A stretch of 46,694 bases of DNA, filler included, from Jimgerdemannia flammicorona (taxonomy: Eukaryota), in NCBI GenBank assembly GCA_003990765.1. It is 2 parts of 2 records of this genome, joined end to end, with 100 filler letters (N's around TTAATTAATTAA, not from the genome) between each part and the next. Parts side by side here need not be neighbours in the genome. Positions count along the whole stretch, not along the records: positions 1 to 23,302 come from RBNJ01001122.1; 1 more part is not named here. The stretch is one strand, 5' to 3'. Below are positions 15,056 through 45,600 of this stretch, piece after piece. The notes under the pieces are model-generated. The model saw nothing but the letters and a program-made list of their open reading frames with translations, ran no database searches and was not told where the DNA came from. Position 1 is the stretch's first letter. Each line of letters opens with the position of its first letter. Both the position numbers and the translations under genes were made by a program.

Positions 15056-15129
15056 CTGCATTATATTATGCATGAAACATTTAGAGCTCTTCCAAATCTC
15101 TTTCCACGAAAGCTAGTAGATTCAACTGG

Positions 15130-16676
15130 TGTAACGACTATAAATTCGAAGAAGAAACCAGAGCAGGATGTTGCAGAATCTATAAGAGAGCTGACAAAGG
15201 CAGTACGGGCAATGGAAGAGTTATTGGGTAATTGAGCAACATTGAATTATGAATTAGGACTTTGTCATATAGAAGTAATGGAGAGAGATTCAGAGACAAG
15301 AAGATTTGATGCAGAGATGAGAAGATTGAAGTTAGAGAAGAGATAGAGACAGAATTGATGTAAACATAAAGAGAAGATGTATGTGATCAAAATAAAATAT
15401 ACCACAAGGCCAAGCAAAGAAGAGATAAGTATCAGTAGCAGTAGTGATAGTAGTAGCAGCAATAGTGAGGAGATAGAAGAAATAGAGGAAGAGAGGAGTG
15501 AGTGTAAGGCTATTAGAGCAGATTTGATAAATAGAGATAAAAGAGCAGATCTCTTTATCAGTAAAGAGAAGATTGGTTGGAATGAAGACAGAAGTAGCAG
15601 TAGTAGTAGTAGCAATAGCAATAGTAGCATCAATAGAGAGGAGTAAAGGAAGAGAGAAGAGAGTTGAGCAAGAGATTGTCTAGAGCAGATTTAATATTAG
15701 AGATAAAAGAGTATATCTTCTTATAAATAGAGTGAAGATCAGTAGAGATGGAGGCTATAAGAGGGTTGCTTTTTAGGGTAACCATTACATAGTTTTGGAA
15801 GGGTTTTCTGGAAGTTCTGGATATTCTGGAAGACCATTTTCTTATAATCAAGATCAATTTCATATAGAGTATGTCCTCTATACTTATTGATTTCAAGATC
15901 AGATTGACATCTCAACCAAAGTCTTTTTTCGGACTAATTCTGGATGTTCAGGATTTTCTGTATTTCAGGAAGTTCAAGAAACTAAGACCAGCTTAGTTGA
16001 ATTGGTGTATTACTGCAGACAATACCCAATTAGGAAATTTTGTGATGGGGTTAGGAGTGGGACCTAATGGGGAGCAGATTTACTTAAGAGTGGTTTATGG
16101 GTTATTAAATAGGTTTATTCACTATTCATGATATTGCTATACTAGAAGTAGTTGTATGAAGGGATATTGTGGGAAAGTGTTCAAAAGTTGTGTTTGGATT
16201 GTTCAGGTCTGAGATTCTGAGGTCTGAGGGAGGGGTATTTATATTAGTGAGGGGCTATCTAGACTATGCTAAGTATGGATGTAGCACTAAGTGCCTTGCT
16301 GAGTCAGAATGCAGTCACATAGTATAAGTATGATCTAATATGTCAAGAGATCATCTGACTGCTAAGTCAGTTCACAGTCATGTCATACAAGGCTAATCTA
16401 ACTATACTATGACTGCTAAGCTATTTATAGGTTTAGGTACTGTCTGGGTAGTCTTCGATGACATCACTATTGATGACATCATCGCTAGCAGTTTTCTGAC
16501 TTCTGATATCATCAGTTTCAAGGTGTCATCACTTCTATCTCTTACAAGATTAAGGCTGTCCTTGGTGGCAGTGGTTGTACAAGGATAACAGGTCTTGGTT
16601 CTCTTTTTTTTTGGTCTGCTGATATATTTGTGAGGACTGGCCATTCTCGTCTAAGGTGAGGGCTCCCAATGTCACA
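15130..16676 (-). repeat. Candidate 3' LTR of the Gypsy element (long, degenerate)
   Basis: Bounded by TGTAAC (15130) and GTCACA (16676), giving TG..CA ends with a 5/6 inverted match. Minus-strand TATAAATA at about 16236-16244. Lies downstream of the integrase. No second LTR is available for confirmation. Confidence 0.4.
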
Positions 16677-19600
16677 GCTGGGGGTTCAAACCTCTCAGAA
16701 ATAATATTTTCTGTAATCTGAGGCAATTTCTAGTAGTAATATCTATCACATAGATGGCTTGAGATTGGTTTTGACAATGTTGGCTTTCTTGAGTTCAGAT
16801 GAAGTATTCATTACTCTCCAATAGAGGTGATACAGATAGAGTGAACAGAGTTGTTCAAATGTATTTACTTCTGCTAAGTAATGAGGTCTTGTATAGTTGC
16901 AGTATATCCTGGTCTTGAGTTGATAAGTATAGCTTGTGAACCTTTTGATGAGTAAGATAGGGTTCTTCTTATCTTGGTTTGATTTTGGTACTTTCAGTTT
17001 TCTTTTATAATAGTATGGTATACCAAACTAGTTATAGTAGTTCAGAGTCAGTCTTATGGTTGTAGTACTTCTTCTAGTATTCTTGTATCTTGGCAGTAGG
17101 TTCTCATATTACTGGCATATTTCGTGTAACCAGATGATCTCTTCAGTAACTTGTTTTGTAGTCTCGCATATAGTTTCCAAATTAGTTCTGAGGATGATAT
17201 GTGGTTTTGGTGGCTTGGAGGTTGTGTGCTTATAACTCTCTTCTTTTTAGCTTTCAACGTCCTTATCGGGGCCTTCTAATTTGTTCTGGTGTTGTTGTAC
17301 CATTTGGATGGTTCTTGTAGCTGTATTTGTTGAGGATTTGTTCAACTTTGTATTCTTCTTGGTCATTAATAATGACAGGTACAGGTGGTTTGGTGATTTG
17401 GTTCAGGAATAGCTCATCATCATTTTCATTATATTACTTGAGATATTGAACATTGAAGACTGGGTGAATCTTAATGGTATCTGATAGCACCAATTTGTAG
17501 GAAGTAGGAGAGACTTGTGCAATGATTTCAAATAGTTCAATAAACTTGCTGTTCAGTTTTATAGATGGTCTATACTTGAGGTTGTCAACTCGGTATCCTC
17601 AGATGTCTAGTAGAACTTTTTCTCCAATATCAAAGATTTCTTCTCAGCAGTATTGGTTAACATACTGTGACTGTTATTCTTAAGCTCACGATAAATTCTC
17701 AATTGTGATCTGGCTTAGATTATACATTCAGAGCAGGAATTCTTCAACAGCTTCGACTGTGGAGGGTTCTTCAGTAGTTCAGATGAGTATCAAAGAGGTG
17801 TTTGGGTTTTGTCCAGTGTTGGCGAAGAATGGGGTCATTCCAAGAGAGGCTTGCTTGCTATTGTTGTAGGTAAACTCAATGGTAGTGAGGTGTTCATACC
17901 TATCATCTTGTCTATAGGAGACATAGTTCCTTAGCATTTGTTCCAGAGTTCAGTTCATTTTTTCAGTTTGGCTATCAGTTTCTGGGTGAAAGGCTGTAGA
18001 TAGTGCGAGTTTCATTCTAAGGTGTGCATAGAGGGCTTTCTAAAAGTGGCTGGTAAATTTCGGATCTCGATCACTAACAATGATTTTAGGAAGACTATGA
18101 TAGTGGAAGATGTTGTCAAACAAGAGTGTAGCTATATCTGGTACTATTACAGTAGTGGTAGTAGATACAAAGTGGGCTTGTTTGCTGAGGTAATCTACAA
18201 AGATAATAATTGCATCTTTTCTATTCTTGGTTCGGGGTAGTTGTACAATGAAGTCTATAGAGATTTGTTCTCAATTTGCAGATGGTACTGGGATAGGGTG
18301 CAGTAAGCCAGGTTTTGCTAGTATTGAGGACTTGTTTCATTGGCAGGTATTACAGGAAGTGATATAGGTCTTGAGTTGATCTGCCATCTGGGGCCAATAG
18401 AAGTTCCAGGAGATAACTTTATAGCATTTGTCAAATCCTAAATGTCCAGCTATAGGGGCATCATGACATTCGAATAGGATAGTCCTTCAGAGGTCTCGGT
18501 TGTTTGGGACATATAGTCTGTCCTTGTAGTAGATAGCATTATTCTTGAGTTGATATTAATTGTACCAGGTATGCTTGTCAGCATCATCACCATTCAGAAT
18601 TTCTTGGAGTGCTTGAGCTTCTTTATCATCAGCATATGCTGTGATAATTTGTTCTATAATAGTATTGGTAACCAAGGTGAGAGTTTGGATAACTTCTTCA
18701 ATGAGTGGTCTGGAAATTGCATCGGCAACAGTGTTTTCCTTGCCAGAGTAATACTGGATTTCGTAATCGAAGTTGGTGAGGACTTTCATCCATCTGGCTT
18801 GCTTTTGAGAAAGGGTAGCCTGTGTCTTGATATTGACTAATGACTTGTGGTCAGTCAATACAGTAAAGTGTGCTCCTTCTAGATATGGTTGCTATTTGAT
18901 CAGAGTGTCTATGATGGCTAGCATTTCCTTTTCATAGATTGCATAGTTGATTTTGGTATCATTGAACTTGCAAGAGTGATAGGCCACAGGGTGTCCTTCT
19001 TGCATAAGCACTGCTCTAAGGGCTAGATCAGAGACATTAGTAGTAACTTCATATAGTAGGGCAGGATTTGCTGCTTGAAGTACTGGAGTTGTTATCAAGG
19101 CATCCTTCAGTACTTGAAAGGCTGTATCTTGTTCAGGTCCCCAATTTACAAGATTGTTAAAGTCTTTCTCTTGTTTCGTAATCCAGGGTTGTTCTTCTTT
19201 CTTGCTGTATTTGGTCATTTGGGTAAGAGCTGTAGCAATTTTAGCAAAGTTGGCAATAAATCACCTGTAATAGTTTGCTAATCCTAGAAATGACTGGAGG
19301 TCTTTCAGCTTCCTGGGTCTGGGCCAATCCTTGATTGCAGAGATTTTGCTGGAGTCAACTTTGATTCCATTTGGAGTGACAATGTGTCCAAGGAATTGAA
19401 TTTCTTTTAGGAGAAATTTGCACTTGCTGAGTTTTGCAAAGAGTCAGTTTTCTCAGAGTTTCAGTAGTACTAGTTCAAGGTGTTCAAGATGTTCCTCCAG
19501 GGTTTTGCTGAAGACTAGGATGTCATCAATGTAGACTATAACAAATTTATTCAGGTAGGGGTACAGAATGGTGTTCATTAGTATTTGGAAGGTTGCAAGA

Positions 19601-20212
19601 ACATTAGTTAAGCCAAAGGGCATAATCAGGAACTCAAAGTGTCCATAGCGGGTTCGAAAGGCTGTCTTGTAGATGTCTTCTTCTTTTATGGCAATTTGTC
19701 AATAACCATTTTGTAGATCGAAAGAGCTCATGAATTGTAGATTGGTGAGTCTATCAAATATTTCATCAATTCTGAGTAGTGGGCAACAGTTCTTGATAGT
19801 CTGTTCATTGAGATCGTGATAATCAATGCACATTTGCAGGTCTTCTCCTTTCTTGACAACAAAGAGGACTGGTGCACTATAGGGTGATACACTGGGTCTG
19901 ATGAATCCTTGTTCTAGGAGTTCATCGATTTCCTTCTTGAGTGCATCAATTTCTCTTGGAGACATGTGGTAGATTGACTTGAAGGCAGGCTAGGCATCTG
20001 GAATAGTTTTGATGGCATGGTCTACTGCTCATTTGAGAGGTAGGCCTTTCAGGAGTTTCTTTGGGAATATGTCTTGGAATTTCTGGAGTAGTAGTCTGAC
20101 ATGGCTGTCAATTTTGGAAAAGTCTTCTTCAGAGTTCTCGGGTTCTCCTTTGGATAGATAGATGGAGATAGCAAAGAGAGGGCATTTCTTGGCCAATTTC
20201 TTGAGTTGTAGC
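16677..20212 (-). mobile_element. Degenerate Ty3/Gypsy LTR retrotransposon pol (RT, RNase H, integrase, partial chromodomain); gag/protease side missing
   Basis: RT motifs [32 protein letters not shown] and VYIDDILV (about 19515-19536). RNase H GHPVAYHS, YEKEMLAI, TDHKSL. Integrase CHDAPIAGHLG, TAFHPETD. IHPVFNV followed by EEYKVEQILN (chromodomain start, about 17330-17365). Many in-frame stops. Confidence 0.95.
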
Positions 20213-20240
20213 TAGTGCTCTGAACGAATGGAGTTGATCC

Positions 20241-20440
20241 GGATGAGATTCAATTCAGATTCGTCATGTGATGGATGAGATTCAATTCAGATTCGTCATG
20301 TGATGGATTCGAATCAACTCAGATTGGTCTCGTGATCTGATCCGGATTGATCCGGATTGATCCGGATTGATCCATCCGGATTGATCCATCCAGATTGACT
20401 CATCCAGATTGACCCATCCGGATTGATCCATTCAGATTGA
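20241..20440. repeat. Subterminal repeat array: 2 x 32-bp direct repeat, then (TCCGGATTGA / TCCATCCGGATTGA)n
   Basis: ggatgagattcaattcagattcgtcatgtgat at 20241 and 20273; tandem tccggattga-type units at 20341-20440. Confidence 0.9.
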
Positions 20441-20642
20441 AATCTTTGGTGACGTCACCCTTTCTTTTGTTCATTTCGCTCTTGTTTTTTTTTCCTGCCG
20501 CACTTTGGTGACATCACCCTTTCCTTTGTTCCCTCTCTTTTCTTTGTTCTTTTTCTTTGTTCTTTCCTACTGCATCACGAGCAAACAAAACAGCAGCCCT
20601 AAATTCGTATGTTGGTCCAGTCTACTCATTTTTCACCCTGCA

Positions 20643-22693
20643 ATGATCATCAAAAGAGGGAGTATTCGAGGTGGAAACGCACTCTCTGCTGACAATGTTA
20701 GATTCTTTCTCATATGGACAGCATACAAGCTGCTCATCGAGAGCCAAAGGGGTGACGGCGGTGGCGGTGGCGGTGGCGATGGCGATGGCGAGGATGAGGG
20801 AGAATTCTGGCAATAACTCACGGTGGCCCTTCGGACCTCAGAATTCACAGACCTCATAGCTATGTACGCAGCAGCCTTTTTGGAGCAGCCGATAGTAGAT
20901 ATAGGTTGCTCACTCGGCCGCCACTTGTTTACTTGTGTTTATTTATTTAAACTTCCCCAGCACGACCCAATTCACCTCATGCTTTTCTCAGTGTCCACAG
21001 CTCTACGGCGAGATCTGCCGACTTTATTTGCAACATCTGGTCAAGATGAAGAAAGGCTGGCGGATGTTGCGGGGCATGCCTTTGGTGGCTGAGCTGTTGA
21101 GTCAATGCATCACGTGGCGGAGGTCTCAAAAGGAACAGAAGTAAGCCTTTGTGAGCAATTCTTATGCAACTCGTGCAACTTGTCAGTGTGCAACTCGTCG
21201 GCATGCAACTCGTCGGCATGCAGCTCACTCACTCGTGCTCTTTTTCTGAAATACCCATCTCTATGTTTTATTTAATTTCATTTTTACATGGTCTCCCCCT
21301 AAAAAACACCCACACCCACACGCAACTCGCATGCAACCCATCTGCATGCAACCTGCCCGCCCGCACGCAACCCGCCCGCACGCCACCCGCAACCCACCCA
21401 CATGCAACCCGCCCGCACACAACCTGTCTGCATACTTATCTCGGTCCCTCAGATCAGGGCTCAGTTCTAGTGGAAAGGAGAGTTCAAAGTTACCCGAGTT
21501 CAACCATGTCCGGCATCTGATCAAATAGAGAAATTCGAGGGCAAGATGTTCAGCATGAGCAGTACCAGCATCGTCATCAAGGCTTGGGGGTCTACATTCG
21601 AATCAGAGCCAATCGTACTCGACCAAGGGGTCCATTGGCCAGCAGGAGTAACCAACGACGAAGAGAACCATATCTTTATTAACGAACGCGGAGAGGTGGT
21701 TGCAATGGTGGTAAGGAATCTCTACAGCGACGAGCTTCGCCGCCACATCAACGAGATTTGCGAGGATTGCATCAAATACCGGGTGGCAGGGAAGAGGGGG
21801 CGAAAAAAGCAAGGAGGGGGGGTTTGGACGGGAATTGGGTATACTGCAATACTGGCGAAGGGTGGGTTCCGAAATCCCCCGCACTTGTCTCCCTTTTTTT
21901 TTAACCCCTCCCCAGATAAATCACACTTTTTGCTGACATACTCTTTTTGATACAATTCCAGGGATGCACAAGATTCTGTACCCCTACCGGAACTTTAGAA
22001 GTGCTGTCGAAGAGCAAACTGTGCGCGAGCATGACACGGCCTGTGCGGCAATGGTGGCTATGATCTGGGGTTCTTTGAGCAGATTGGTAGAGCGTATGGC
22101 AGGCCAGCTTGGTGGTGACCTCGGCGCGGCTGTATATACATTCTTGGCGCAATTTAGTGTGCCGTATGAGATGAGGAGCTCCGCTCTTTCAGGGTGCTGC
22201 AGCCCAGGGGGTTTCTGCAGTCCGGGGGGTTTCTGCCCCCCGAATGCAAAAAGGACTGACCGGTTGCCGTCTGTTTTGGCAGGTTTCCAAGCTGGGGCTC
22301 CCGGGGCTGGACCAAGGGCAGGCATCCACCAGCACAGCCTAGCAGTATGAGGTCCTGGGCCAAGGGTTCACCCAACCGTATGCTCACGTCACATCAGGAT
22401 ATGTCGGGCGCAACCTTTCTCTGCCTACACACACAGACAACAACATCACCCCAGTAATGTTTTACATCCCGGAAAGGAAGGGCCCAACCTGGGAGGACAG
22501 CGGCGGAGTCTGGTACAACCTCTCCTACGGTTTCGGGGTCTTGTTTGCGGCCAACACGGCCATCCTATTCCAACCACATGACCACCATGGCACCGTCGCC
22601 TTTGAGGAGAGCTCGGACACAACAGTCGTCGCACTCACAATGGATGACAGGCTCATCAAGGCCTGGGACCAGTGGGTGGAGCAGTTTTTGTGA
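20643..22693 (+). pseudogene. TET/JBP-like 2-oxoglutarate/Fe(II) dioxygenase, spliced, with four in-frame stops
   Basis: Exons join in frame via GT-AG introns (about 20643-20903, 20992-21140, 21453-21860, 21962-22158, 22283-22693). The last exon reads PYAHVTSGYVGRNLSLPTHTDNNITPVMFYIP...SGGVWYNLSYGFGVLFAANTAILFQPHDHHGT, which matches HxD...GG...ILF...H. Stops at 20814, 21090, 21468 and 22340. Confidence 0.6.
21163..21425. repeat. Intronic degenerate minisatellite built on ATGCAAC(T/C)C
   Basis: Repeated atgcaactcgt(cggc) at 21164-21225 and gcaacccgcc/atgcaaccc at 21320-21425. Confidence 0.75.
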
Positions 22694-23302
22694 GGGTTAG
22701 ACAATCTTTCGTGAGGGTTAGGCAATCTTTCGTGAGGGTTAGGCAGCCATTTTGGCGGGTTGGGCAGTCTTATGTGGGGGGATTGGGCCAGGCGCCTCTT
22801 ATGTAGCACTAGCTTAGCCGTTATGCAGGGCCCTACCGGCCCCTCGGCCCTGCTCTGCAGTGCCGCCAGTGTGGCGCTGCAGCGCAGGGCCAGGGTGCCT
22901 GTGGGACCCGAACTGGCGACTTTGATCGCCGGAAATGCCCTCCGACCGCCAGAAGCACCCTCCGACCGCCAGAAGCACCCTCCGCCCCGGACTCCTTGGC
23001 GGCTTGGGGCTGCCCCTATGCTGCTGGCGGAGGGCTGCAAATTTTGCGTGCTCCCTCCGCCTGCCCCGCCCGCCAACCAACCCCACCCACTGACCTGGGC
23101 GCTGACAGCTTGGGGCTGCCCCTCGCTGCTGGTGGAGGGCCGCAAATTTTGTATGCTCCCTCCACCTCCCCCCCCGACCCGGACACTTGTGGCTTGGGGC
23201 TGCCCCTTGCTGCCGGCGGAGGGCTGCAAATTTTGCGCGCTCCCTCCGCCGACCTGCCCGCCAACCTGCCCACCGACCTGCCCCCCGACCCGCCCACCGA
23301 CC
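22690..23302. repeat. GC-rich composite repeat array
   Basis: 3 x 21-bp gtgagggttaggcaatctttc (22690-22745); 2 x 20-bp ccctccgaccgccagaagca; 3 x ggcttggggctgcccc...gagggctgcaaattttgcg.gctccctcc (about 23001, 23107, 23191); 12-bp ccgacctgccc-type units up to the gap. Confidence 0.88.
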
Positions 23303-23402
23303 NNNNNNNNNNNNNNNNNNNNNNNNNNNNNNNNNNNNNNNNNNNNTTAATTAATTAANNNNNNNNNNNNNNNNNNNNNNNNNNNNNNNNNNNNNNNNNN
23401 NN
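23303..23402. other. Artificial assembly spacer (N44-TTAATTAATTAA-N44)
   Basis: 100-base block with a six-frame stop linker in the centre. Confidence 0.95.
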
Positions 23403-24435
23403 TGGAGGCCAGACTCAAGAACTGGAAGGTATGAAAAAAAAAAAAATGCTTGGCAGTGCTCGTGCAACAACAATTCTGATGAAGTTCCTTACAGAATCAA
23501 AGAGTGAAATGGAAGGATATCGAGAGTGCAGCGTCAAGGAATTGAACTACGGCTTATTCAGGTCAGTTGGCAGGAGAAAGATGCCGTTGTTGTTGTTGGA
23601 GTAACGCTTCTAAGAGTGACTTGTTCTTCGTGACAGCGTGGGGAAATCATCGACCAAGCGAAGGCGTGGAGGCGACGCGCGGACCGGGGAGAAGAGGTAA
23701 TTCTTGGCAAGAGGAGACTGGAAGAAATCGAGAGGGGAGAAGATGAAGATGAAGCCGAAGCCGAAGCTGGCGGTATCGAAGATGACGATTCCAGTGATGT
23801 CGAGCCCGAGAAAGACGAAGACACAAACGTGGAAGGCGACAACGCGAAGGAAAAAGATCAAAATCGGTTTGAGGTTGCTTTCTCCCTTAGCAGCAATGAA
23901 GATTTCGTATACCCGATCGATGACGATCAATCCTTAACGGAAGTGGCTGTTAAGTGTCGGTTGCCAAAAAGACAGAGAAGACCTTTGGAAACGATATCTG
24001 TTACGGCGTCGGCGCCAGCAGAAATGGTAACAGCTGCATCCATGTCACCCAGCTGAGAAATGTTTACCGTAGATATTGAATAATAATATAACGCCATGTA
24101 ACTTTCTACTATGAAATGTCTTTCTTTATACAGCCTGGAACCAAGGAACTCTCAGAACCTGTTTATGCTGATGACAATAATGGTGATGGTGGTGATGAAG
24201 TCATTTCGGTCGAAATCAATTCCATTATGGAGGATTTACGGAGAGAACCATTACACGAGATATGCAGCGAAGCTAAATATTGCTCTCCTTTTATTTGACC
24301 ATTCTTCTTACTCTAGTTTCTTTATGTTAGTGGATAGTTGACGGCATCAACGTCACGCAAAAATTCCGCGAGTATCAACAACAAACATTGAAAAAGCTTT
24401 TAGATGTAAATCTCTACCTCCAAGCAATAAAATAA
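23403..24435 (+). CDS. Partial spliced gene of unknown function (acidic region), 5' end in the gap, possibly truncated
   Basis: Exon-like frames RGEIIDQAKAWRRR...EDEDEAEAEAGGIEDDD...APAEM, PGTKELSEPVYADD...LHEICSEAK and WIVDGINVTQKFREYQQQTLKKLLDVNLYLQAIK*, with plausible splice sites. Confidence 0.45.
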
Positions 24436-24448
24436 AGAGCAAAAAATA

Positions 24449-24823
24449 CACTTCTGTGATCAAGCCACAACGCGAGCATTCCAATAGAGTCTTAAGGCCG
24501 GGTCTCTTCCAATTAATGCCGCTTGCGATGTCAGTAAGGACGAGGTGGGAAGGGTATAATTGTTGGAGATGTTACTTCTGTCTTTCAAAGTCGCTTCGTT
24601 GCTTAGGGCTTGAGACTCGCGCATAAATGTATTTAGAGGATTGTTCGGTGGATGTTGGGGTAAGGTTGGAGGTGTGATTGGAAAGGACATAGCTGACATC
24701 ATAGAGACGGACACCACCACAGGTGCGCTCCGCCTTTATACGTCCTTGAATGTGCCAGCGACGAAGGGTTCTGGAGGAGACTCCAAACCGTTTGGATGCT
24801 TGATGAGCAGAAAGAAGAGTCAT
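24449..24823 (-). pseudogene. tnpA: IS607-family TnpA (MerR-type HTH plus serine recombinase), with a premature stop and 3' truncation
   Basis: From ATG 24823: MTLLSAHQASKRFGVSSRTLRRWHIQGRIKAERTCGGVRLY...KYIYARVSSPKQRSDFERQK*HLQQLYPSHLVLTDIASGINWKRPGLKTLLECSRCGLITEV. Similarity continues past the TAA (24572-24574) and ends at about 24449. Confidence 0.88.
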
Positions 24824-24956
24824 TTGGGAATAGCAGAGCACAAAAATACTTAGAAACACGCATACATTATATATACCTGTGCTGCTAAGAGAGGCTGCGG
24901 CGTAAGAAAGACCGGCGGCGTAAAAGAGATGGCGTAAAGGTATTAAGAAAGAATCG

Positions 24957-27900
24957 ATGACAGCCACGTTCTCTGAAAGCAGTCCCAATGCAACTTACGA
25001 CGTTTCTTTGCTTATGACCATGAACAGAACGGAGAACAGTTTCTTCCGAAAGACGCGAAAGAATGCCATTGTCAAGCAAGTTCGTGAACGTAGGAAAATA
25101 CTTCATACGATTTTATTTGGTCTGTGATCGTATTTCTTGGCTCAATACTCCTGTTTGCGAACTCCCACCAGACTATATTCGCCCTGACATTCCTTGCCTC
25201 TCTGAGTTGTGTTCTCGGACGCCTCCCTGCCACCTGAGAGTGGTTGCCGATTCTACCCTGCTTTCTGCGGAGGCAACCCATTATCTAATACCGGACTTGT
25301 CGGTGAGCTAGGCTTGAACCTGTTGGAAAGCAACAGTTGGTAATCATATTAACAACCATGACGATGTTTCAGGTCGTAAGCCGATATTTAGAGATATTGG
25401 AGCAAGAAGAGCTCTCTAACCTAGTCATCGCGCAAACCATTATGGCATCGGTAAGCTATCCATGCATTTTCCTCGTTTCTCTCCATGAAATTGGTTCATC
25501 ATTCTTTTTTATTCTTATCAAAGTTGGAGCAACACGATCGCCTTCGGACATACCGCCGTCTGCGTCAGGTCACCAGCGACCCAAGACGACGCAGCGTTTT
25601 TTTCTACAATGAAATTTTTTCCGAAACGTACGTTGCACGACTACCAAACGAAGGTCAAAAGGAGCGTGAATGGAGAGGTTGGTCCACGGAATTTTGATCA
25701 ACCTCGACAAACATCTTGTAATAGCTCATTCTTCTTACCAATGTACGGCTATGGCTTCGATACAGCTCTATGCAGAGTTGCCGCATGGTACCACCACCAT
25801 CTAAACGGGCTTCTACCAATTCTGTTACTGTCAGAAAATGCACGTTTTATGAGTACTCCAAATGTTTTGACTCCACAGAACTTGTCTAAATGCTTTGTAA
25901 TTTTTTTTTTTTTTTTTTTTTTTTTTTAGTTCACCCAGTCAGATCTAACATCCCAAGAATCATCCGTCGGTATCGTTGTCTGCTCCGTCAAGCAATATCT
26001 GGATCGATTTTGGCCTGGGTGCGCCGTATTGCATGAACTTATGGGCTCGCTTAAGGATGCTGTGTTTGAGGAAGACCTTACTCTTGAACGAATCCGAATG
26101 ACGGGAAAGGTCGGAGAATTGTTGAAGAAGAGTAATGTTGGAGAGCCTGGATATGAAGAGGTACTTGATCTTACAGAACTAATGCGGATTGTTGATCTTA
26201 TGATAATTTGGAATCTTACGCATGTGAGAAACCACCTTTCTTTGGCATTGCATTTTGCGACTAGTACAAGGCCGCGGATGAGCTTGAGGCTGGTGTCAAA
26301 TCTGGAAGATATTTTCAAGGAGTTCTGCGTGTCAGCCCTTCTAACCGCGACCAGGCTTACATCAACGGAGGCTCCAAGATAGGCGGCGACATATTGATAA
26401 TCGGAAATCGGCATAGAAATCGTGCGGGTATTGTCCAGCTATTCTTTTTTCTGTTTTCTTGGACATCTGATTGTCTTCAACGTTGGTGTTCATAAATGAA
26501 GCGAATGAATGAATGAAACGATGTTGCATATCGACAGTCCACGGCGACGTAGTAGTTGTAGAACTTCTTTCGGAGAATTCGTGGACTGTCCCGGCGAACT
26601 CGATGTCGTATGATCTGGACATGGCAAAAGCTGCCGAAGGTGCTGTATGTTCGCTTTGACGAATGCACATTCAATCATGCGATAAAGCTAATTGTCCTTG
26701 CCAATCGCCTTCACACTTAACGTCATTCATGCTCAATCAGAGGTGGGCGAACAGCTTGCGCGACAGTCATCTGAAATTCGTCCAACGGGACGAGTTTTGG
26801 GAGTCATTACTCGCAATTGGCGCTCTTATGTGGCGACGGTGCAAGAAGATGCAATCGATCAAGGTGGTAACGTCCTCCTAACCATTCCACTGGACCCTAT
26901 TATTCCAAAAATTCGTGTTCGATATGGCGATGTCAGAGCTATATCGAGACAGCGCATCGTTGTACGAATTGATAGCTGGTAATTGTAATGAGCGGTTGTT
27001 AAATACACTTCCTAGGACGCAAGGGAGAGCAGTTAATCTTTCTGGGACATAACCGCTGGCTTTTGTTATATGGTAGGCCGACTACATCGCAATATCCCAA
27101 TGGACATTATGTGCGTTCCCTTGGTGAGTACAGGATTATATGCATCAACCGATCATGCATTTTGATCTTTGCTTAATTGCATTGCCATTCCTTTTACCCC
27201 GTAGGCCCTATCCATCAGTTGGACACGGAGATCTCTGCTATCCTCGTAGAGCATGAAATATCCGTCTCTCAAGCGACACAGGGTTTCAGCGAGGCATCTC
27301 TGCGGGAGATGCCGGAGGATACGCAACAAAATCCTTGGAAACCCGATCCCGTAAGCTCTTCACTTTCATCTTCAACATTGAGAAGATGTGTTCGCCTTGA
27401 TTATATTTTTATGTCGGCTTCTCATGGTCATTATTTTGTCACTGTAATCTCTAGACGGAGCTTAAACGACGAAGAGACCTCAGGGAAACACATACCGTGT
27501 TCAGGTTTGTGAATGAAGTGATGTTAATTTTTGATGAAGCATTTTAAAAAATCTATCTCAACACAAACGAATCACAACTCTTATATATGCAGTATTGATC
27601 CCCCAAATTGCCAAGACATTGATGGTAATATTAAATACGGATTTCTGGATTTATTGGGTATAATCGTTGATGGTTCCAAGTTTGACCAAAGCCGCATTCA
27701 TCATAGACGCCTTGTCGGTTCGTGACTTGAACGACGGAACCGTCGAACTTGGCGTCCATATTGCTGACGTTAGCTACTTTGTAAAGGAAAATACGCAAAC
27801 AGATTTGGAGGCCCGTGCAAGGTAGGGTTTTAATCGTGTCCCATTCATTTACAAGGTTTGATGCCAATAGTCCCTCCTTGCTCACTGTCTAATTTCATGA

Positions 27901-40200: not shown

Positions 40201-42311
40201 AAAGGTTCATCGTTAGATAAGGATCGTGACGATGGCAATTGAAGTGTATCCGTATCGGGATCATGGATATCTTCGAAGAGGAACACCGCGACAGAGGACG
40301 GCGGCGCTTGGACCGGATTGATGGATAAGGACGGTGATCCGGTGGTGGAAATGGGAGAGTTCAGGATAGATGGCTTTACTTCGGCAGAACATTCAGAGAC
40401 GGGGTCAACACCAGTAGCGGATTGTCTCGCCCTATTATCATCACGAATGAGCTTCGGCAATGCACTTTTAAAGTTTGTGTCAAATCCAGCCTTATTAACT
40501 GGAGCGAGGGAGCAATCTTGGAGGTTTCTCGAATCCCTATCGGCGCCCAACGCAATTCCAGAGCCCAGCTTCAACGTCTGTGTGGCATCAATGGCAGAAG
40601 CACCTGCAACGTTTGATAACCCTGTACTCGCATCCTTCGTTTTCTCGAGAAACCCCAATGACGTCATCCTGCCGGTTGAAACCGTATTCAAAGAGCCGGT
40701 TGTCGGGGGCGATGCAAGATGAGGCATTACCGCAGATGATAGTGACAGAGCGGTAACAGGAGGTGTAACCGTTGTTGATGCAGCGACAGGAAATCTCGAG
40801 GTAAATCCCGCCAGTCCTGTTTTTCCTCCACCGGCCGCCAGGCTCGCCAATGGCCTCCTGGTCTGTCCAAGCGAGCTCTGCGCGAGAGAAGACAGCGAAG
40901 GGCCGGTACCACTTCCCAGATCGAACTTCGTCTGCGTTAGTGCGGGCGATAACACCATGCTTTGTCCCAAACCCGTGCCGGTATTGGAAGTAGGCTGCCC
41001 GCCTGCGTCCGTTTTTACCATGCGATCACGTAACTGAGCTAAACTAGAAGTTCCGCCAGCTGGCTGCGTTTTTGGTCGTGCCAATTCAGTTAACGACGGA
41101 CCCAGCGCAGGAAACAACGATGCCGGCGGTTTGCTATTTCCTTGGTCCGCTCCACCCAACAAACCGGAATTGACCGACCCCATTCGCCTATGCCACGATT
41201 TCATATCTGCCGTCGGCTTAGGCGACATCACGTCCAAGAGATCACTGCAACACCCATTGACCCACTTCGTATCGCGCCACCACCATCGCATCAGATCCCG
41301 ATGAAGTTGTTCCCCGGATCTGCTTTCCCTATCCTCTGGATGGCCGTCCCATGCGCACGTTTGCAGAATATCTACTGTATTGGGTTGATTGGGTTGAGTA
41401 GAAAGGAGGGCGACTGATTGAGACCTCTGATTAACTTTTCAACGTTGCCAGAGATGTTTCGCCCTGACTCATTCAGCCCAAAATCGTTGAATCGTCCGGT
41501 CGATAGTTTGCAGTCGGCGAGGCTTTGGCTCTTGATCATGGACGGTCCTGATCTCGGAAGAGTACAATCGGATTGACTTCCGACTCTCGCCGTAAATGAT
41601 CGTTCCACCCTCCACAGCCATATTTAATATGTAGGCTTAATCACATTTTGACAAATCAACGTATAAAATTTACCTTTAGGTGCTGAAGCAACCTTCTTTG
41701 TAGTTGTTTTCTCTTTTTCCAGCTTGTCTCTGGTTATTTTGTCTGATATATATATATATAAATTTTGAGGGTGGGGGTGAGTAATTGGGGTAAAAAGTGC
41801 ATCATGTAAGAATCTGGAAGATATCCGATCTTACATGCGCAATAAGAACAAGCCTTACAAGGATCCAATAAGTGCTCAACAAACCCAGTATCCAGTTCAA
41901 GCTCTTTTCTTTGTTGAAGAAATAGTACCAAAGCGTTTCTTCAATCTCCTCGTCGGATACTGAAGCATTCCCGCCTATTACGCTGCGAATGTGGGCTAAA
42001 CCTTCTTGCATTTGGATCTGATCCTCCTCTGTGAGATCTTCGTTGCAATGTGTACAAAGTTAGCCAGATATGAAAAAAATCTAGTGGGAAATTTGCTTTT
42101 CAGCTGGGCGTAAGATGCTTGAAGGTGCCCACCTTGACCGATTGCTTCCTGCTCCTCGTCAGAGTAGTAGTCATCGTATTCTTGCTCACCAAGAACACCT
42201 GAATAAAGATATGCTGAGTGTGTCTGTGTTAACAGCAGCAGCGCTATTGCTCAGATAGGTAAAGCATTTACCTGAGATGTCAATGTTTCGTACATTTCGG
42301 TGGCGCGACAT
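37234..42311 (-). CDS. HBS1: HBS1 translational GTPase, multi-exon, with a SKI7-like cassette exon (40085-41374)
   Basis: [12 protein letters not shown] start; [14 protein letters not shown] (HBS1_N); [78 protein letters not shown]. Confidence 0.93.
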
Positions 42312-42379
42312 TTCTAACAAAACGGATAAGCCTACCCTGACGCTTCAAGGTTGTGGTCAGTCACATGATATACATTTTA

Positions 42380-42620
42380 GATATTATTTATTTATTTTTA
42401 TAAAATAGACTAAACTTTAAAAATATAAATAAATTAGATTGATTATTAAGTTATATATATTTCTTAGTCTATAATAGCTAAAATTAGCTATTAAAATATT
42501 CTATATTTAAAATTAATTTTATAATATAAAATTATAAATTATAAATTATAAATTTATTCAACTAATTAATATATTATAATATATTTGAAATCATCTAATT
42601 TAAAAGTAATAATATTATAT
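42380..42620. other. Extremely AT-rich tract between the HBS1 promoter and the LINE relic
   Basis: Nearly devoid of G/C; includes (ataaatt)n. Confidence 0.8.
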
Positions 42621-42639
42621 TTGAGACTCTCTTTGGACT

Positions 42640-45600
42640 TCTTTTGCTCAAACCACTCAGAGTGAGCTAAGCTACATGGGTATTTTTTTTTTATAAAAAG
42701 CAATATATTTTCAAGTTTTCACTTTACTTATACTAATATACTAGATATAATGAGAGTCTGGTAATAATACTCAATAAATTTTATTGAAATCCATCAAGTT
42801 TCTGTATAATGGCCAACCAAGGTTCATTAAGCTCTGAGTATTTGGAGAGGAGAAGACCTGGCCTGAGTCTCTTCAAAAGTTTTGTAACAACTACTGAGGC
42901 TGGTAGAGTAGAGAGATAAACTAGTAATCAAGGGCTAGTGACTAGAGTAGATAATTAGTGTACAGTGGTAGAGAATAAGAGGACTATCTCTAGATCTATA
43001 GTAGGAGGACAGGGGGGCATAGTATTGATAGAAGTGAAAGTCAGGTAACTGGTCAGTTGACTGGTCAGGTACCCAGTAGGAGAACTACTAAAACTACCTT
43101 TCCTAGAGCTGAAATAGTAGCTAGAGATATGACTGCTAGTAGTATAATAATTCTTGGTGAGGTAGTAGCTGGTGTTTCTGGGAGTAAGAGTAAGACAACT
43201 CTAGTTGCAGAGACTAGTAAGCTGGTAATATATCCTTTCTTTTATAAGTTAGTATTAATATGAGTAGTCTCCATCAACTTTCTGGGGCTTAGCCTGTTTG
43301 TCAAGGAGGTTCTGTAATTAGTGAGTGAGAAGGTTGCAGAGGCAGAGTTACTGAGATTTATTTCTTCAGTAGAGGTGATAGAGGTTGGCTTTATTGAGAA
43401 GAAAGCCATAGTGAAGGCTCTAGAGAAGAGGCTAATGGTTAAGAATATTAAGGTAGAGATAGTAAGGTACATATCTATATAAGATAGGACCTATATAGTA
43501 TGGCTGGTAGTTGAAAGATTACCAATACTGAGCAGACAGAAGACTAAGATGATAGTAACCAAAGCTCTGAAAGGTTTTGGTGAGATAGCAGATTTTGAGT
43601 TTATATTTTGAGAGAGTATAAAGTTGAGGAATAGTAACTGTGAGATAATGATATAGTTAAAAGAAAAGGAGGCAACTGGATTGAGGTGAGACTGGTCTGA
43701 GATTATTCATATTGGAAGATAGAAGTATTGGATTTGGAGGAGAAAAGGCTCTGAGCAGGAAGAAAAAGAGTTACTGATTGCTCTAGAGGAGTATAATGAA
43801 GCAAAGGCTCTGTAGAAGAGAAAGTGAGAGGAGTTTGTCAAGAATTGGATCTGAATTGAGATAGATAGAAAGAGAAGATAACAATATAAAGAGAATTGGA
43901 AGTAGTTGCAGGCAGTATTGCAAGAGTCTGCAGAGAAAGAAGCTGAGAGGGTCATGACTGACAGGAATCAAATGAAAGAGGTAGAGGCAGCTGAAGTATC
44001 CTTCTTATAGCTGGGGGGAGTGAGAGACTTAGTATACATACCTGTGAAAGAGAAGTGGGCTGATGGCAAGGAAGAGGGGGGAGCAGGTTTTGAAGAGATG
44101 TTAAGGTGGTCTCAGAGACTTAGATAGAGGACATAATGATGGCCAGATCTGTAAATATAACTGAGAATGTCCTGAGGCTGGAGAGGTAGTATGGCTAGAC
44201 AAAGTCTCAGAGGAGAATGATCTGGTAGAGATTGCTTTTGATGTATCTGTAGATAGAGAATTGCTTTAGGAGTTGTGCAGGACTCCTAGGCCTACCACCC
44301 TAGAGCCACTGGCAATGATAGCAGATAGTTAGTTCCAGGTAGTCCTTGAAGAGCTTGTAGAGGAAGACATTAAGAAAGTAGATATATTTCAGAGTTCTTT
44401 GGAGGTATGGGAAGAATTTCTTAATATGATATTATAAGAACCAAAGTTGGTGACCACCATAATAGCAGTCCTCTTAGAGAATGAAAGATATGAGATAGAT
44501 GAAGCCCAGATAGTAGATATCAGAAAGGTGATATCAGAATGAGTAGACTTCTTCTGTAGTAGTATCAATGAAGAGTAAATTTGGAAGACAGTCTGTAAGG
44601 AGTATTGGAACATTATTAAGGGCAGAGTTGAGAAAGTAGCAGCAGTAGTAGCTGATATCTAAACTTACTATTTATAATGAAAAACAACCTATGAATTTTA
44701 TTGATCAATATCAATAGTCTATATAATAGAGTTAAGCAGTGACATCTTTTTTGGTAGCTAAAGATCCAGAGGTATAATGTGGTATTTCTTCAGGATGTTC
44801 AGGCTTATGATGTACAGAACTATGAGTAGTAAAGTAAGGAATAGTTTGGAGGTACTAGTTGGAATATGCAAGTTAGTATTCTAGTTGATATAGAAAAGGG
44901 TAAACTAGTTAATGTAAAAATCTTTGGCAGTCATCTGGTATAGAGAAAGCTGAAGAGAGATACTGGAGATGGACTTTTGGTAGGCTCTATATATCTGCCA
45001 GTAGTTGGCAAAGAGTGAAAGCAATGGGTGAAAGAGTGATTGACTTGGGAGAATTGAGCAGCCCTAGAATTTGACATTCTGGTGAGAGACTTCAATATGA
45101 TATGAGATTGTGCACTAGATCAGTCTGATGGTGGGACTGATATAGCCATCTCTCAGAGGCTGTCTCAGTAACTTCAGATAGAAAAAGGTATAAGACTAGT
45201 AGACAGTATATGGCTGAGAGCTGGAGATAAGTCAGGGCCCTTCACTAGGTAGTATCTGGTGAGTGATGGGATGGTGGGAATATAGATTGATTGGGTGCTG
45301 ATAGCAGAACATTGAGGTAATATATTAGATATTATGAAGATATGATGATACCTATAGTCTGACTATTGGGAAGTTGAAGTATGTGAAAGGTTTCAGATAG
45401 TTAGTAGTGAAGGAGGGCATTAGCATCTTAATGTGGCCTTGCTTCAGCAATTAGTAGAAAGAGAGTAATTTGTTTTCTTTATCAGGTAGGAAGTAAAGAG
45501 GTGGGTGAATAGTGGTTTGTCTATTGCTGAATAGTAGGGTAGGTTTAAACACTTGGTGGATATATATTAGTAGGATGTTGGAGAGATAACTAGAAAGGAG

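What the first reader, a model, noticed from the sequence alone, without database searches (positions are those of the whole stretch)
20643..22693. Hidden TET/JBP-like dioxygenase gene carried inside a nested mobile insert
Seen: the ORF track shows only fragments, but splicing at GT-AG sites and reading through four stops gives one continuous frame. It ends in ...NLSLPTHTDNN...SGGVWYNL..GFGV....TAILFQPHDHHGT, the HxD...H iron-binding layout of 2OG-Fe(II) oxygenases with TET/JBP-like spacing. Known: fungal TET/JBP genes travel on Kyakuja-Dileera-Zisupton and Plavaka transposons, mainly described in basidiomycetes, and oxidise 5mC or 6mA. Inference: this is a transposon-borne epigenetic eraser in a Mucoromycota-like genome, possibly a counter-defence against the system that mutated the neighbouring repeats.
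Basis: partly seen in the sequence, partly recalled or inferred. Interest (0 to 1): 0.85.

Follow-up and report, generated by a model that had tools for sequence, protein, structure and literature searches.

The report
Decayed TET-like dioxygenase gene copy
This stretch is a broken copy of a fungal gene for a TET-like DNA-base oxidase that sits in a many-copy repeat; it widens a known class of transposon-linked "methylation eraser" genes, but this copy is dead.

Summary
The hidden gene is real. Homologues and GT-AG introns give a five-exon gene on the + strand, about 484 codons, at 20643-22693. The homology-supported core is 21076-22693. The quoted HxD...H motifs are present and conserved in relatives.

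The window copy is a pseudogene. It has three in-frame stops, and other copies read CAA and TGG at two of them. One splice donor is lost, and one exon junction is out of phase by 1 nt.

No Pfam model matches the protein. Only 6 proteins among 1.8 billion representatives match it. Three lines still point to TET/JBP:
- Two AlphaFold models of the only full-length homologue (low confidence) are closest to NgTet1, TET2 and CcTet.
- All 30 best named clusters in the language-model search are Tet-like families.
- Its Agaricales relatives carry, by eye, the motifs of Kojima's (2025) "PE-type" transposon TET/JBP proteins. Our lineage has HxD where PE-type has its hallmark HxE.

The whole 3.1 kb (20215-23302) is a many-copy repeat in soil metagenomes, and copies differ almost only by transitions, mostly at CpG. 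No transposase, terminal repeat or KDZ/Plavaka link was found, and the right end is lost in a scaffold gap. The host phylum was not determined. Verdict: a new HxD variant of a known kind; moderate interest.

The parts
20215..23302 (.). Many-copy repeat unit that carries the gene. The left edge is approximate and the right edge is lost in the scaffold gap at 23303-23402.
   Evidence: contigs of 4 runs laid at 85-100% likeness. X1 gave 1077 contigs covering 30 of 30 bins, X3 gave 56 contigs covering 30 of 30 bins. Depth is lower in the first bin, 20200-20303. CpG o/e is 0.70 against 1.06-1.09 in flanking genes. The gypsy pol frame ends at about 20211.
20643..20900 (+). Putative exon A, an N-terminal extension with a Gly/Asp-rich run. 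Contains the in-frame TAA at 20814-16.
   Evidence: The frame is open except for TAA. Position 20814 is C (CAA) in all contigs that cover it: X1 4, X2 3, X3 3. Length is 258 nt, phase 0. No homologue support and no Pfam hit.
20901..20991 (+). Intron A, 91 nt. The donor is destroyed in the window (ATAGGT).
   Evidence: Position 20901 is A in the window and G in other copies (X1 200.6 of 204.9 depth, 12 contigs), giving GTAGGT. The acceptor is TCTCAG. This intron joins frame 0 to the frame of exon B.
20992..21140 (+). Exon B. Holds the Met (21076) that aligns with the start of homologue P0007.
   Evidence: By eye, the peptide from 21076 resembles the P0007 N-terminus (MP..LL....W...Q). The donor is GTAAGC at 21141.
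21141..21457 (+). Intron B, 317 nt, filled with 15-19-nt tandem repeats.
   Evidence: GTAAGC...GATCAG. The intron position matches intron 1 of the intact relative L001.
21458..21861 (+). Exon C, the N-terminal half of the dioxygenase domain. Contains the in-frame TAG at 21468-70.
   Evidence: tblastn P0007 residues 92-186 against 21639-21920. P0025 matches 21720-21863. Alignment A6.
21862..21961 (+). Intron C, 100 nt, GTGGGT...TTCCAG, with a branch-like CTGAC 28 nt from its end.
   Evidence: Splicing gives AK-G-MH, which matches 'AKGMH' in P0007. Same position as intron 2 of L001.
21962..22193 (+). Exon D, the helical middle part of the domain.
   Evidence: tblastn P0007 residues 167-240. P0025 residues 48-94.
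22194..22282 (+). Intron D, 89 nt, GTGCTG...TGGCAG, with a branch-like CTGAC 26 nt from its end. The junction is out of phase by 1 nt.
   Evidence: Corresponds roughly (not to the codon) to intron 3 of L001. The only GT-AG alternative that keeps the frame and the LPGLD motif (donor 22159) removes the conserved 'PYE' stretch. No indel at this place appears among the 12 indel rows shown (11 more rows not shown).
22283..22693 (+). Exon E, the C-terminal beta-helix core. HxD is at 22430-22438, the second His at 22586-22588, the in-frame TAG at 22340-42 and the stop TGA at 22691-93.
   Evidence: Position 22341 is A in the window and G in other copies (X1 217.6 of 227.5 depth). P0005, 84% identical, has W there.

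Best explanation
Window 20643-22693 (+), with a secure core at 21076-22693, is a pseudogenised copy of a five-exon fungal gene of about 484 codons. The gene encodes a 2-oxoglutarate/Fe(II) dioxygenase of the TET/JBP kind. It belongs to a small, unannotated lineage that is a distant relative of the 'PE-type' transposon-borne TET/JBP dioxygenases of Agaricales and Pezizomycetes. This lineage keeps HxD where PE-type has HxE.

The gene lies in a repeat unit of at least 3.1 kb (about 20215-23302) that exists in many diverged copies. Those copies decay by C-to-T/G-to-A transitions, mostly at CpG, which is the signature of deamination of methylated cytosine.

Shown:
- the gene structure;
- the lesions of this copy (three stops, one lost donor, one phase error);
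- conservation of the iron triad in relatives;
- the double-stranded beta-helix fold, with TET enzymes as nearest solved structures;
- the many-copy state and the transition spectrum.

Inferred:
- Intact copies bind Fe(II) through H-x-D...H and oxidise a methylated base in DNA, most likely 5mC. That would lift methylation from the carrying element and slow its CpG decay.
- The unit is, or is part of, a mobile element whose transposase is not in the window.

The window copy itself cannot make the enzyme.
For: Gene and lesions:
- tblastn of P0007 gives three collinear blocks, joint E 6e-24 and 1e-11.
- The intact relative L001 has canonical introns at the corresponding positions.
- Other copies read C at 20814, G at 20901 and G at 22341.

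Family:
- phmmer of the read-through exon E (P0004) found 6 proteins at E<=1e-3 among 1,835,955,588 representatives. They include P0005 (84% identical), P0007 (2.6e-17) and P0009, a Moniliophthora hypothetical protein (7.2e-6).
- A profile search added P0026 from Paramarasmius.
- P0007 aligns with P0026 over about 340 residues (24% identity, pairwise E 6e-9).
- H283 and H335 are invariant in 7 of 7 sequences.
- The carboxylate is D in 6 sequences (window, P0005, P0006, P0007, P0025, L001), E in 2 (P0009, P0026) and N in 2 (P0008, P0010).

Fold (models of P0007, not of the window protein):
- VIA-align against 48,161 chains put NgTET1 (Z 11.7, 189 aligned) and TET2 (Z 11.0) first for model 1.
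- For model 2 it put TET2 (Z 12.3, 227 aligned) and NgTET1 (Z 11.9) first, with CMD1 at rank 4 and CcTet at rank 6.
- In the second look at 999 chains, the first 10 entries are all NgTet1, TET2 or CcTet (Z 12.7-11.3).

Language model:
- All 30 of the 30 best named clusters carry PF20515 (6 clusters, best score 0.96 with 209 of 256 features shared) or PF12851 (24 clusters).

Link to PE-type:
- Table S1 of Kojima 2025 (PMC12730594, supplement file 1) prints PE-type domains.
- By eye these share the motifs APPCGVF, NYAR, ENQPHK, GGHFY, HGTSL and GLAIVT with P0009 and P0026.

Repeat and decay:
- X1 gave 1077 laid contigs, split 151/413/382/131 at >=99, 95-99, 90-95 and <90% likeness, covering 30 of 30 bins.
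- Places by kind of change in X1: 214 transitions against 11 transversions.
- Among the 40 sites listed (369 more not shown), 12 of 20 window-T/others-C sites are TpG and 9 of 12 window-A/others-G sites are CpA.
- CpG o/e is 0.70 in the unit, 0.18 and 0.09 in the two neighbouring repeats, and 1.06-1.09 in genes.
Against: - No Pfam family matches: 0 of 5 window fragments at E<=1, 0 of 5 homologues at E<=1, and P0026 has none at E<=10.
- No PDB sequence matches, either with the single protein or with the profile.
- Both AlphaFold models are of low confidence (mean pLDDT 49.1 and 51.2, pTM 0.58 and 0.57; MSAs of 9 and 12 rows). They model a homologue only 38% identical to the window's exon E.
- Foldseek ranks prolyl hydroxylase PHD2 first (E 1.5e-4) and CcTet only at rank 30 (E 1e-3).
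- In one search the TET rows are within 1 Z of prolyl hydroxylases.
- That P0009 and P0026 are PE-type rests on my reading of printed sequences, not on an aligner.
- No conserved Arg sits in the position of the usual C-terminal 2OG-binding RxS.
- No transposase, TIR, LTR or TSD was found.
- The copy number comes from metagenome contigs, which may mix organisms.
- No catalytic activity is known for any member of this lineage or of the PE type.
Confidence: 0.7

Rival explanations
1. The protein is a 2OG-Fe(II) oxygenase that does not act on nucleic acid, for example a prolyl-hydroxylase-like or small-molecule hydroxylase. The resemblance to TET would then reflect only the shared beta-helix fold.
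For: - Foldseek's best matches are PHD2, PHD1 and bacterial P4H (E 1.5e-4 to 1e-3).
- In one search, P4H (Z 10.6) and PHD (Z 10.5) are within about 1 Z of NgTET1 (Z 11.7).
- No Tet_JBP or 2OG-FeII_Oxy_6 HMM hit.
- The models are of low confidence.
Against: - TET-family chains rank first in all three VIA runs. They fill the first 10 entries and have longer aligned lengths than PHD2 (218-237 against about 180).
- All 30 of the 30 best named language-model clusters are Tet-like families.
- The family's Agaricales relatives match printed PE-type TET/JBP domains motif for motif.
- The gene sits in a methylation-type decaying repeat.
Confidence: 0.12
2. The repeat is not a transposon. It would be a host gene family spread by segmental or subtelomeric duplication that happens to lie beside a gypsy remnant.
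For: - No transposase, TIR, LTR or TSD in or around 20215-23302.
- The unit holds only this gene plus tandem-repeat-rich flanks.
- L001 and L002 show the relative with the same flanks in two metagenomes, which could be a single locus of one species.
Against: - About a thousand short contigs at 85-100% likeness cover the whole 3.1 kb, non-coding flanks included, in one soil run.
- Transition-only decay and CpG depletion resemble the neighbouring retroelement.
- The nearest characterised relatives (PE-type) are carried by Plavaka, Helitron, Zisupton, EnSpm and IS3EU elements of 8-22 kb (PMC12730594, abstract, sections 3.2-3.4 and Table S1). The window could therefore hold only a piece, with the rest lost in the gap.
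Confidence: 0.2
3. The gene is intact in the organism, and the stops, the lost donor and the phase error are assembly or sequencing errors in a collapsed repeat.
For: - The locus abuts a scaffold gap with a linker (23303-23402), so the assembly is poor here.
- Other copies read sense codons at two of the three stops.
Against: - Five independent lesions are present, and the three that could be compared with other copies (20814, 20901, 22341) are transitions, as in the family-wide spectrum.
- The phase problem at 22193/22283 is not accompanied by any listed indel in other copies.
- Relative L002 also carries stops where L001 is open, so decayed copies are common in this family.
Confidence: 0.05

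Closest known systems
PE-type TET/JBP dioxygenases of fungal DNA transposons (Kojima 2025, PMC12730594; Plavaka, Helitron, Zisupton, EnSpm and IS3EU elements of Agaricales and Pezizomycetes)
   Same: - Homologous over the whole domain: P0004 against P0009 gives E 7.2e-6 library-wide, and P0007 against P0026 is collinear over about 340 residues.
- Shared motif order: LP.(L/M)D, then GRN..., then H-x-acid, then GG.(F/W)Y, then N-T, then HG(T/S), then ...R(L/I).
- Invisible to Pfam HMMs. Kojima likewise reports only HHpred E 1.4 to CMD1 (section 3.2.3).
- Lies in repeated DNA.
   Different: - HxD instead of the HxE that Kojima names as the hallmark of the type.
- Only 24-27% identity to the two Agaricales relatives compared here.
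- The motifs THTD, THVD, YGFGV and FYNM occur 0 times in Table S1.
- No carrier transposon was identified.
- The host lineage is unknown, and relatives L001 and L002 come from AT-rich (34% GC) soil organisms.
Solved TET enzymes: NgTet1 (4LT5, 5CG8/9), human TET2 (4NM6, 9HXV), CcTet (7VPN, 8JKK), and CMD1 (7CY4)
   Same: Best structural matches of the homologue models (Z 10.2-12.7). HxD...H triad on a double-stranded beta-helix with an N-terminal helix-strand extension.
   Different: - 9-12% identity, and no sequence-level match.
- The CcTet positions that Kojima cites for 6mA/5mC handling (Gly331, Asp337, at +5 and +11 from the first His) are Ile and Tyr in the window. This comes from my own counting, not from an alignment.
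- The residue that binds 2OG was not identified.
AG-type / KDZ-linked basidiomycete TET/JBP (Pfam PF20515 2OG-FeII_Oxy_6; family name as given)
   Same: Nearest named clusters by language-model features (0.96, 0.93, 0.92). A fungal, multi-copy, transposon-associated kind.
   Different: No HMM match to PF20515 or PF12851. No KDZ transposase in the window.

Membership tests
2OG-Fe(II) dioxygenase superfamily | Double-stranded beta-helix fold | tested here: met
   Models of homologue P0007 were compared with solved structures. The Foldseek rows shown with E<=1e-3 are all 2OG oxygenases. VIA Z reaches 12.7, and all top rows are 2OG oxygenases. Caveat: mean pLDDT is 49-51, and the window's own protein was not modelled.
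2OG-Fe(II) dioxygenase superfamily | HxD/E...H iron-binding triad, conserved among relatives | tested here: met
   Both His are invariant in 7 of 7 sequences. The acid is D in 6 sequences, E in 2 and N in 2 (P0008, P0010). In the window: H 22430-32, D 22436-38, H 22586-88.
2OG-Fe(II) dioxygenase superfamily | Basic residue that binds the C5 carboxylate of 2-oxoglutarate | tested here: inconclusive
   Invariant Arg residues lie 7 residues before and 15 after the first His. A mostly conserved Arg lies about 21 residues after the second His. None could be assigned, because residue-level superposition was not available.
TET/JBP (Pfam PF12851 Tet_JBP, PF20515 2OG-FeII_Oxy_6) | Match to the family HMM above its gathering score | tested here: not met
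   No hit for 5 window fragments (E<=1), for 5 homologues (E<=1) or for P0026 (E<=10).
TET/JBP (Pfam PF12851 Tet_JBP, PF20515 2OG-FeII_Oxy_6) | TET enzymes are the nearest solved structures | tested here: met
   Ranks 1-2 of 48,161 chains in two models. The first 10 entries of 999 chains are TET-family. In one search the margin over the next family is under 1 Z. Foldseek alone prefers PHD2.
TET/JBP (Pfam PF12851 Tet_JBP, PF20515 2OG-FeII_Oxy_6) | Oxidation of 5-methylpyrimidine (or 6mA) in DNA | not testable with these tools
   Needs an enzyme assay of an intact copy.
PE-type TET/JBP (Kojima 2025) | HxE in place of HxD (the stated hallmark) | tested here: not met
   HxD is found in the window, P0005, P0006, P0007, P0025 and L001. 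HxE is found only in P0009 and P0026.
PE-type TET/JBP (Kojima 2025) | Sequence homology to PE-type domains | tested here: inconclusive
   Homology to P0009 and P0026 was shown. That these two are PE-type rests on a by-eye motif match to Table S1. The printed sequences were not put through an aligner.
PE-type TET/JBP (Kojima 2025) | Encoded inside a complete DNA transposon (transposase, ends, TSD) | tested here: inconclusive
   No transposase or ends in 20215-23302, but the unit runs into a scaffold gap.
KDZ / Plavaka transposon cargo | Linked KDZ or Plavaka transposase gene | tested here: not met
   A Pfam scan of all 124 stop-to-stop ORFs of 90 aa or more in the window (E<=1e-4) found no transposase of any DNA-transposon class. 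That Pfam holds KDZ and Plavaka models is recalled, not checked. Decayed or short fragments would be missed.

The most novel reading that the evidence does not exclude
[quoted passage not shown] This lineage has amplified to high copy number in soil fungi outside the three lineages where transposon TET genes are described (rusts, mushrooms, Pezizomycetes), possibly in Mucoromycota or Glomeromycota-like hosts.

It would ride on a carrier that is neither KDZ nor Plavaka. At the extreme, that carrier could be the IS607-like serine-recombinase element whose remnant lies just across the scaffold gap. Intact copies would oxidise 5mC and so shield their element from the CpG-deamination decay that has ruined the neighbouring retroelements.
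Probability: 0.2. Interest if true: 0.7.

Novelty: new variant of a known kind. Interest (0 to 1): 0.42.

Why it matters
Transposon-borne TET/JBP genes are the clearest candidates for a mobile-element counter-measure against DNA methylation in fungi. So far they are catalogued in Basidiomycota and Pezizomycetes (PMC12730594 abstract; passages of PMC13297926).

This lineage escapes every Pfam model and has only a handful of database relatives, all unannotated. Family catalogues built on HMM searches therefore miss it. It shows that the divergent 'PE-like' branch is wider than described and includes members with the canonical HxD.

The locus also places a putative 5mC oxidase gene inside DNA that carries the mutational scar of cytosine methylation. 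That makes the 'eraser against deamination' idea testable: are units with intact copies less CpG-depleted than dead ones? The window copy itself has no function.

Tried and rejected
- The whole genome of the window is not held, so copy number, element ends and linked transposases could not be sought in the host.
- The word-indexed protein search with 'longer' lengths found nothing.
- PDB sequence searches with the protein and with the profile found nothing.
- No RNA holder was listed for the stretch, so splicing and expression were not tested.
- The repeat finder and self-BLAST found no LTR, TIR or long repeat in the window. The one inverted pair that touches the gene (19550-19578 with 21964-21992) is 29 nt at 86% and was taken as chance.
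- Pfam on the ORFs flanking the gene in L001 and in the window gave nothing except the MerR HTH.
- Cluster look-ups gave no names or taxa for the close relatives or for a window housekeeping protein. The host phylum stayed open, and I did not use the protein atlas for taxonomy.
- The first metagenome locus search failed because alignment A4 had no conserved stretch. A closer alignment gave two loci.
- Iyer et al. 2014 (PNAS 111:1676) is not held. What I say of it is recalled or taken from citations in PMC12730594 and PMC5751038.
- The search 'Rhizophagus' + 'tet jbp' returned 0. It is uninformative, because the slash form 'TET/JBP' is not matched by that term.
- Earlier-scan look-ups by place and by sequence returned nothing.
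- I considered that the intron D problem is a private frameshift. I could not decide, because other copies show no listed indel there. The alternative in-frame donor at 22159 removes a conserved stretch.
Full report
SETTING

The window is gene-dense and fungal in style. It has short GT-AG introns and housekeeping genes: CCDC47, Spt4, Dus, a PPR protein, AICARFT and a DnaJ protein.

Between the DnaJ gene and the next genes lies a repeat island:
- 15100-20215 (- strand): a decayed Ty3/gypsy pol (RNase H-like domains, E 4e-22).
- 20215-23302: the stretch holding the finding.
- 23303-23402: a scaffold gap (two runs of N around TTAATTAATTAA).
- To about 25900: roughly 2.5 kb that includes an IS607-like recombinase remnant.

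No whole genome is held for the window.

THE OBSERVATION

The quoted peptide is exactly there. ORF 22343-22693 ends with ...PTHTDNN...GGVWYNLSYGFGV...ILFQPHDHHGT....

A phmmer search of that exon, read through its TAG, against 1.84 billion representative proteins found only six relatives:
- P0005, 84% identical.
- P0006, 56% identical.
- P0007, the only full-length one (374 aa, E 2.6e-17).
- P0008 and P0010.
- P0009, a hypothetical protein of Moniliophthora perniciosa (E 7.2e-6).

tblastn of P0007 on the window gives three collinear blocks in three frames, so this is a split gene.

GENE MODEL

| Part | Coordinates | Note |
|---|---|---|
| exon A | 20643-20900 | no homologue support |
| intron A | 20901-20991 | donor lost in the window |
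| exon B | 20992-21140 | holds Met 21076 |
| intron B | 21141-21457 | tandem-repeat-rich |
| exon C | 21458-21861 | |
| intron C | 21862-21961 | |
| exon D | 21962-22193 | |
| intron D | 22194-22282 | junction out of phase |
| exon E | 22283-22693 | HxD...H core |

- Intron C joins AK-G-MH, as in 'AKGMH' of P0007.
- An intact relative from a soil metagenome, L001, has three canonical introns at the corresponding places. Its exons join in open frame across each junction.
- The model totals about 484 codons, close to the 485 residues of the Agaricales relative P0026.
- Exon A is the weakest part. No homologue covers it.

In favour of exon A, its frame is open apart from one TAA. In addition, other copies restore a GTAGGT donor in the phase needed to reach exon B.

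THE COPY IS DEAD

The window carries five lesions:
- TAA at 20814-16. All ten covering contigs of other copies read CAA.
- An A at 20901 that destroys the donor of intron A. Other copies read G (200.6 of 204.9 depth in X1).
- TAG at 21468-70.
- TAG at 22340-42. Other copies read TGG (217.6 of 227.5 depth), and P0005 has W there.
- An exon D/E junction that is out of phase by 1 nt.

So I count three internal stops, not four, and splicing plus read-through does not by itself give one frame. For the phase problem, the indel rows shown list no change in other copies (11 rows were not shown). Either the lesion is shared by the family or the real splice sites differ. The only in-frame GT-AG alternative that keeps the LPGLD motif removes a conserved 'PYE' stretch.

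WHAT THE PROTEIN IS

Sequence libraries give nothing:
- No Pfam family for the window fragments, the homologues or P0026, even at E<=10.
- No PDB sequence match.

The family keeps both His in 7 of 7 aligned sequences. The acid is D in six sequences, E in two and N in two.

Two AlphaFold2 models of P0007, from MSAs of 9 and 12 rows, have low confidence (mean pLDDT 49.1 and 51.2; pTM 0.58 and 0.57). Both still give the same topology: an N-terminal helix, a hairpin, helices, then eight or more strands.

Structure comparisons:

| Search | Chains compared | Top results |
|---|---|---|
| Foldseek, model 1 | PDB | only 2OG oxygenases among rows at E<=1e-3; PHD2 first (1.5e-4); CcTet rank 30 (1e-3) |
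| VIA-align wide, model 1 | 48,161 | NgTET1 Z 11.7, TET2 Z 11.0, then P4H Z 10.6 |
| VIA-align wide, model 2 | 48,161 | TET2 Z 12.3, NgTET1 Z 11.9, FTO Z 10.7, CMD1 Z 10.6, PHD2 Z 10.3, CcTet Z 10.2 |
| VIA-align second look, model 2 | 999 | first ten entries all NgTet1, TET2 or CcTet (Z 12.7-11.3), then FTO |

The protein-language-model search gave Tet-like families for all 30 of the 30 best named clusters. Six carry PF20515 (best score 0.96) and 24 carry PF12851. The C-terminal ORF alone had already pointed the same way.

The fold is therefore secure. The TET/JBP assignment is well supported but rests on weak models and on methods that give no E-value.

LINK TO THE KNOWN PE-TYPE

A profile search added P0026, a 485-aa hypothetical protein of Paramarasmius palmivorus. 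P0007 aligns with it over about 340 residues. P0026 and P0009 carry HxE.

Kojima (2025, PMC12730594) defines a 'PE-type' of transposon-borne TET/JBP-like proteins. I read the abstract, sections 1, 3.2, 3.4 and 4.2, and Table S1. According to that paper:
- HxE is the hallmark of the type.
- The proteins are detectable only by HHpred (E 1.4 to CMD1) and by structure.
- They are carried by Plavaka, Helitron, Zisupton, EnSpm and IS3EU elements in Agaricales and Pezizomycetes.

By eye, the PE domains printed in Table S1 share long motifs with P0026 and P0009: APPCGVF, NYAR, ENQPHK, GGHFY, HGTSL and GLAIVT. I did not pass the printed sequences through an aligner.

The window's lineage is thus a distant relative of the PE type that keeps HxD. 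Its own motifs (THTD, THVD, YGFGV, FYNM) occur 0 times in Table S1, so it is not in that catalogue.

THE REPEAT

Contigs of four public runs were laid on 20200-23300 at 85% likeness or more.
- One soil run (X1) gave 1077 contigs: 151 at >=99%, 413 at 95-99%, 382 at 90-95% and 131 below 90%. They cover all 30 bins, non-coding flanks included.
- X3, labelled with a coded organism, also covers all 30 bins.
- Differences are nearly all transitions: 214 places against 11 with transversions in X1.
- Among the 40 best-supported sites shown (369 more not shown), 12 of 20 window-T/others-C sites are TpG and 9 of 12 window-A/others-G sites are CpA.

This is the pattern expected from deamination at methylated CpG.

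CpG observed/expected:

| Region | CpG o/e |
|---|---|
| flanking genes | 1.06-1.09 |
| this unit (20215-23302) | 0.70 |
| gypsy remnant (15100-20210) | 0.18 |
| block 42000-46694 | 0.09 |

The unit holds no other recognisable gene. Its flanks are rich in tandem repeats. I found no TIR, LTR or TSD. Its right end is lost in the gap. So 'many-copy repeat' is shown, while 'transposon', 'nested insert' and 'KDZ/Plavaka' are not. Copy counts from metagenome contigs may also mix organisms.

MECHANISM

Inferred from the families involved, intact copies would bind Fe(II) with H-x-D...H and 2OG. CMD1 shows that another co-substrate is possible. They would oxidise a methylated base in DNA, most likely 5mC. 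This would remove the methyl mark from the element that carries them, as Kojima argues for transposon TET genes (section 4.2).

The CpG-directed decay seen here gives that idea a concrete target, but nothing was tested. The unit itself is partly CpG-depleted, and this copy is dead.

The CcTet positions linked to 6mA/5mC handling (Gly331, Asp337, as cited by Kojima) correspond by simple counting to Ile and Tyr here. Substrate choice should therefore not be transferred from CcTet.

HOST

The 'Mucoromycota-like' label could not be tested. Exact look-ups returned no names, and no eukaryote genome search is on hand.

From the papers:
- A 2026 review (PMC13297926, passages) places transposon TET/JBP genes in Basidiomycota and Pezizomycetes.
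- Kojima's main text mentions no Mucor, Mortierella or Glomeromycota (0 occurrences).
- Muszewska et al. 2017 (PMC5751038, passages) list KDZ transposases also in Rhizophagus and Mucoromycotina.
- I recall, unverified, that Iyer et al. 2014 mention lateral transfers of TET/JBP to Glomeromycota. That paper is not held.

VERDICT

A real but dead copy of a TET-like dioxygenase gene in a many-copy, methylation-scarred repeat. It represents a new HxD variant allied to the PE-type of a known kind of transposon cargo. Its carrier element and its host lineage remain open.

Noticed in passing
window 24353-24994 (- strand): Remnant of an IS607-type serine recombinase. It has a MerR-type HTH (PF00376, E 2e-9), then a 'YARVSS' catalytic-serine motif and a '...DIASGINW.RPGL..LL' stretch, split over two frames and apparently truncated. 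It lies just right of the scaffold gap in DNA that is not CpG-depleted (o/e 1.04). No TnpB/Fanzor-like ORF was seen beside it.
   Followed up: partly
window 15100-20215 (- strand): Decayed Ty3/gypsy pol with extreme CpG depletion (o/e 0.18) and strong strand asymmetry on the + strand (C 729 against G 1226; T 1741 against A 1415). Mutation therefore hit one strand more than the other, unlike the symmetric pattern in the TET-like unit. The pol frame stops abruptly at about 20211, with no gag, protease or LTR to its right.
   Followed up: partly
window 42000-46694: AT-rich block (GC 0.37) with CpG o/e 0.09 and GC skew +0.38 to +0.48. Only one ORF of 90 aa or more (45858-46148, - strand) and no Pfam hit. 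It shows no DNA similarity to the gypsy remnant in self-BLAST. Probably another heavily mutated repeat.
   Followed up: no
window 23303-23402: Scaffold gap: two runs of 44 N around the linker TTAATTAATTAA. Everything right of it is joined to the finding at scaffold level only.
   Followed up: yes
window 20445-20465 and 20504-20525: Two copies of a roughly 20-nt motif centred on a TGACGTCA-like palindrome (the second copy reads TGACATCA), 120-200 nt upstream of the putative start at 20643, between tandem repeats (32 nt x3, 14 nt x5.8). Possibly promoter elements of the unit.
   Followed up: no
L001 1-3666 and L002 1-2870: Two soil-metagenome contigs (34% GC) carry the same relative with the same flanks. 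L001 is an intact gene whose three introns all have canonical splice sites. L002 has in-frame stops and a broken exon, so decayed copies occur in that lineage too. Two downstream ORFs (L001 2320-2601 and 2661-2945) have no Pfam match.
   Followed up: partly
window 21141-21457 and 22694-23302: Intron B and the 3' flank are filled with C-rich tandem repeats of 12-24 nt (units such as CCGCCGACCTGC) and three 84-105-nt repeats that each hold a short palindrome (GGAGGGC..AAATTT..GCTCCCTCC). Metagenome contigs show many length variants there (joints).
   Followed up: no
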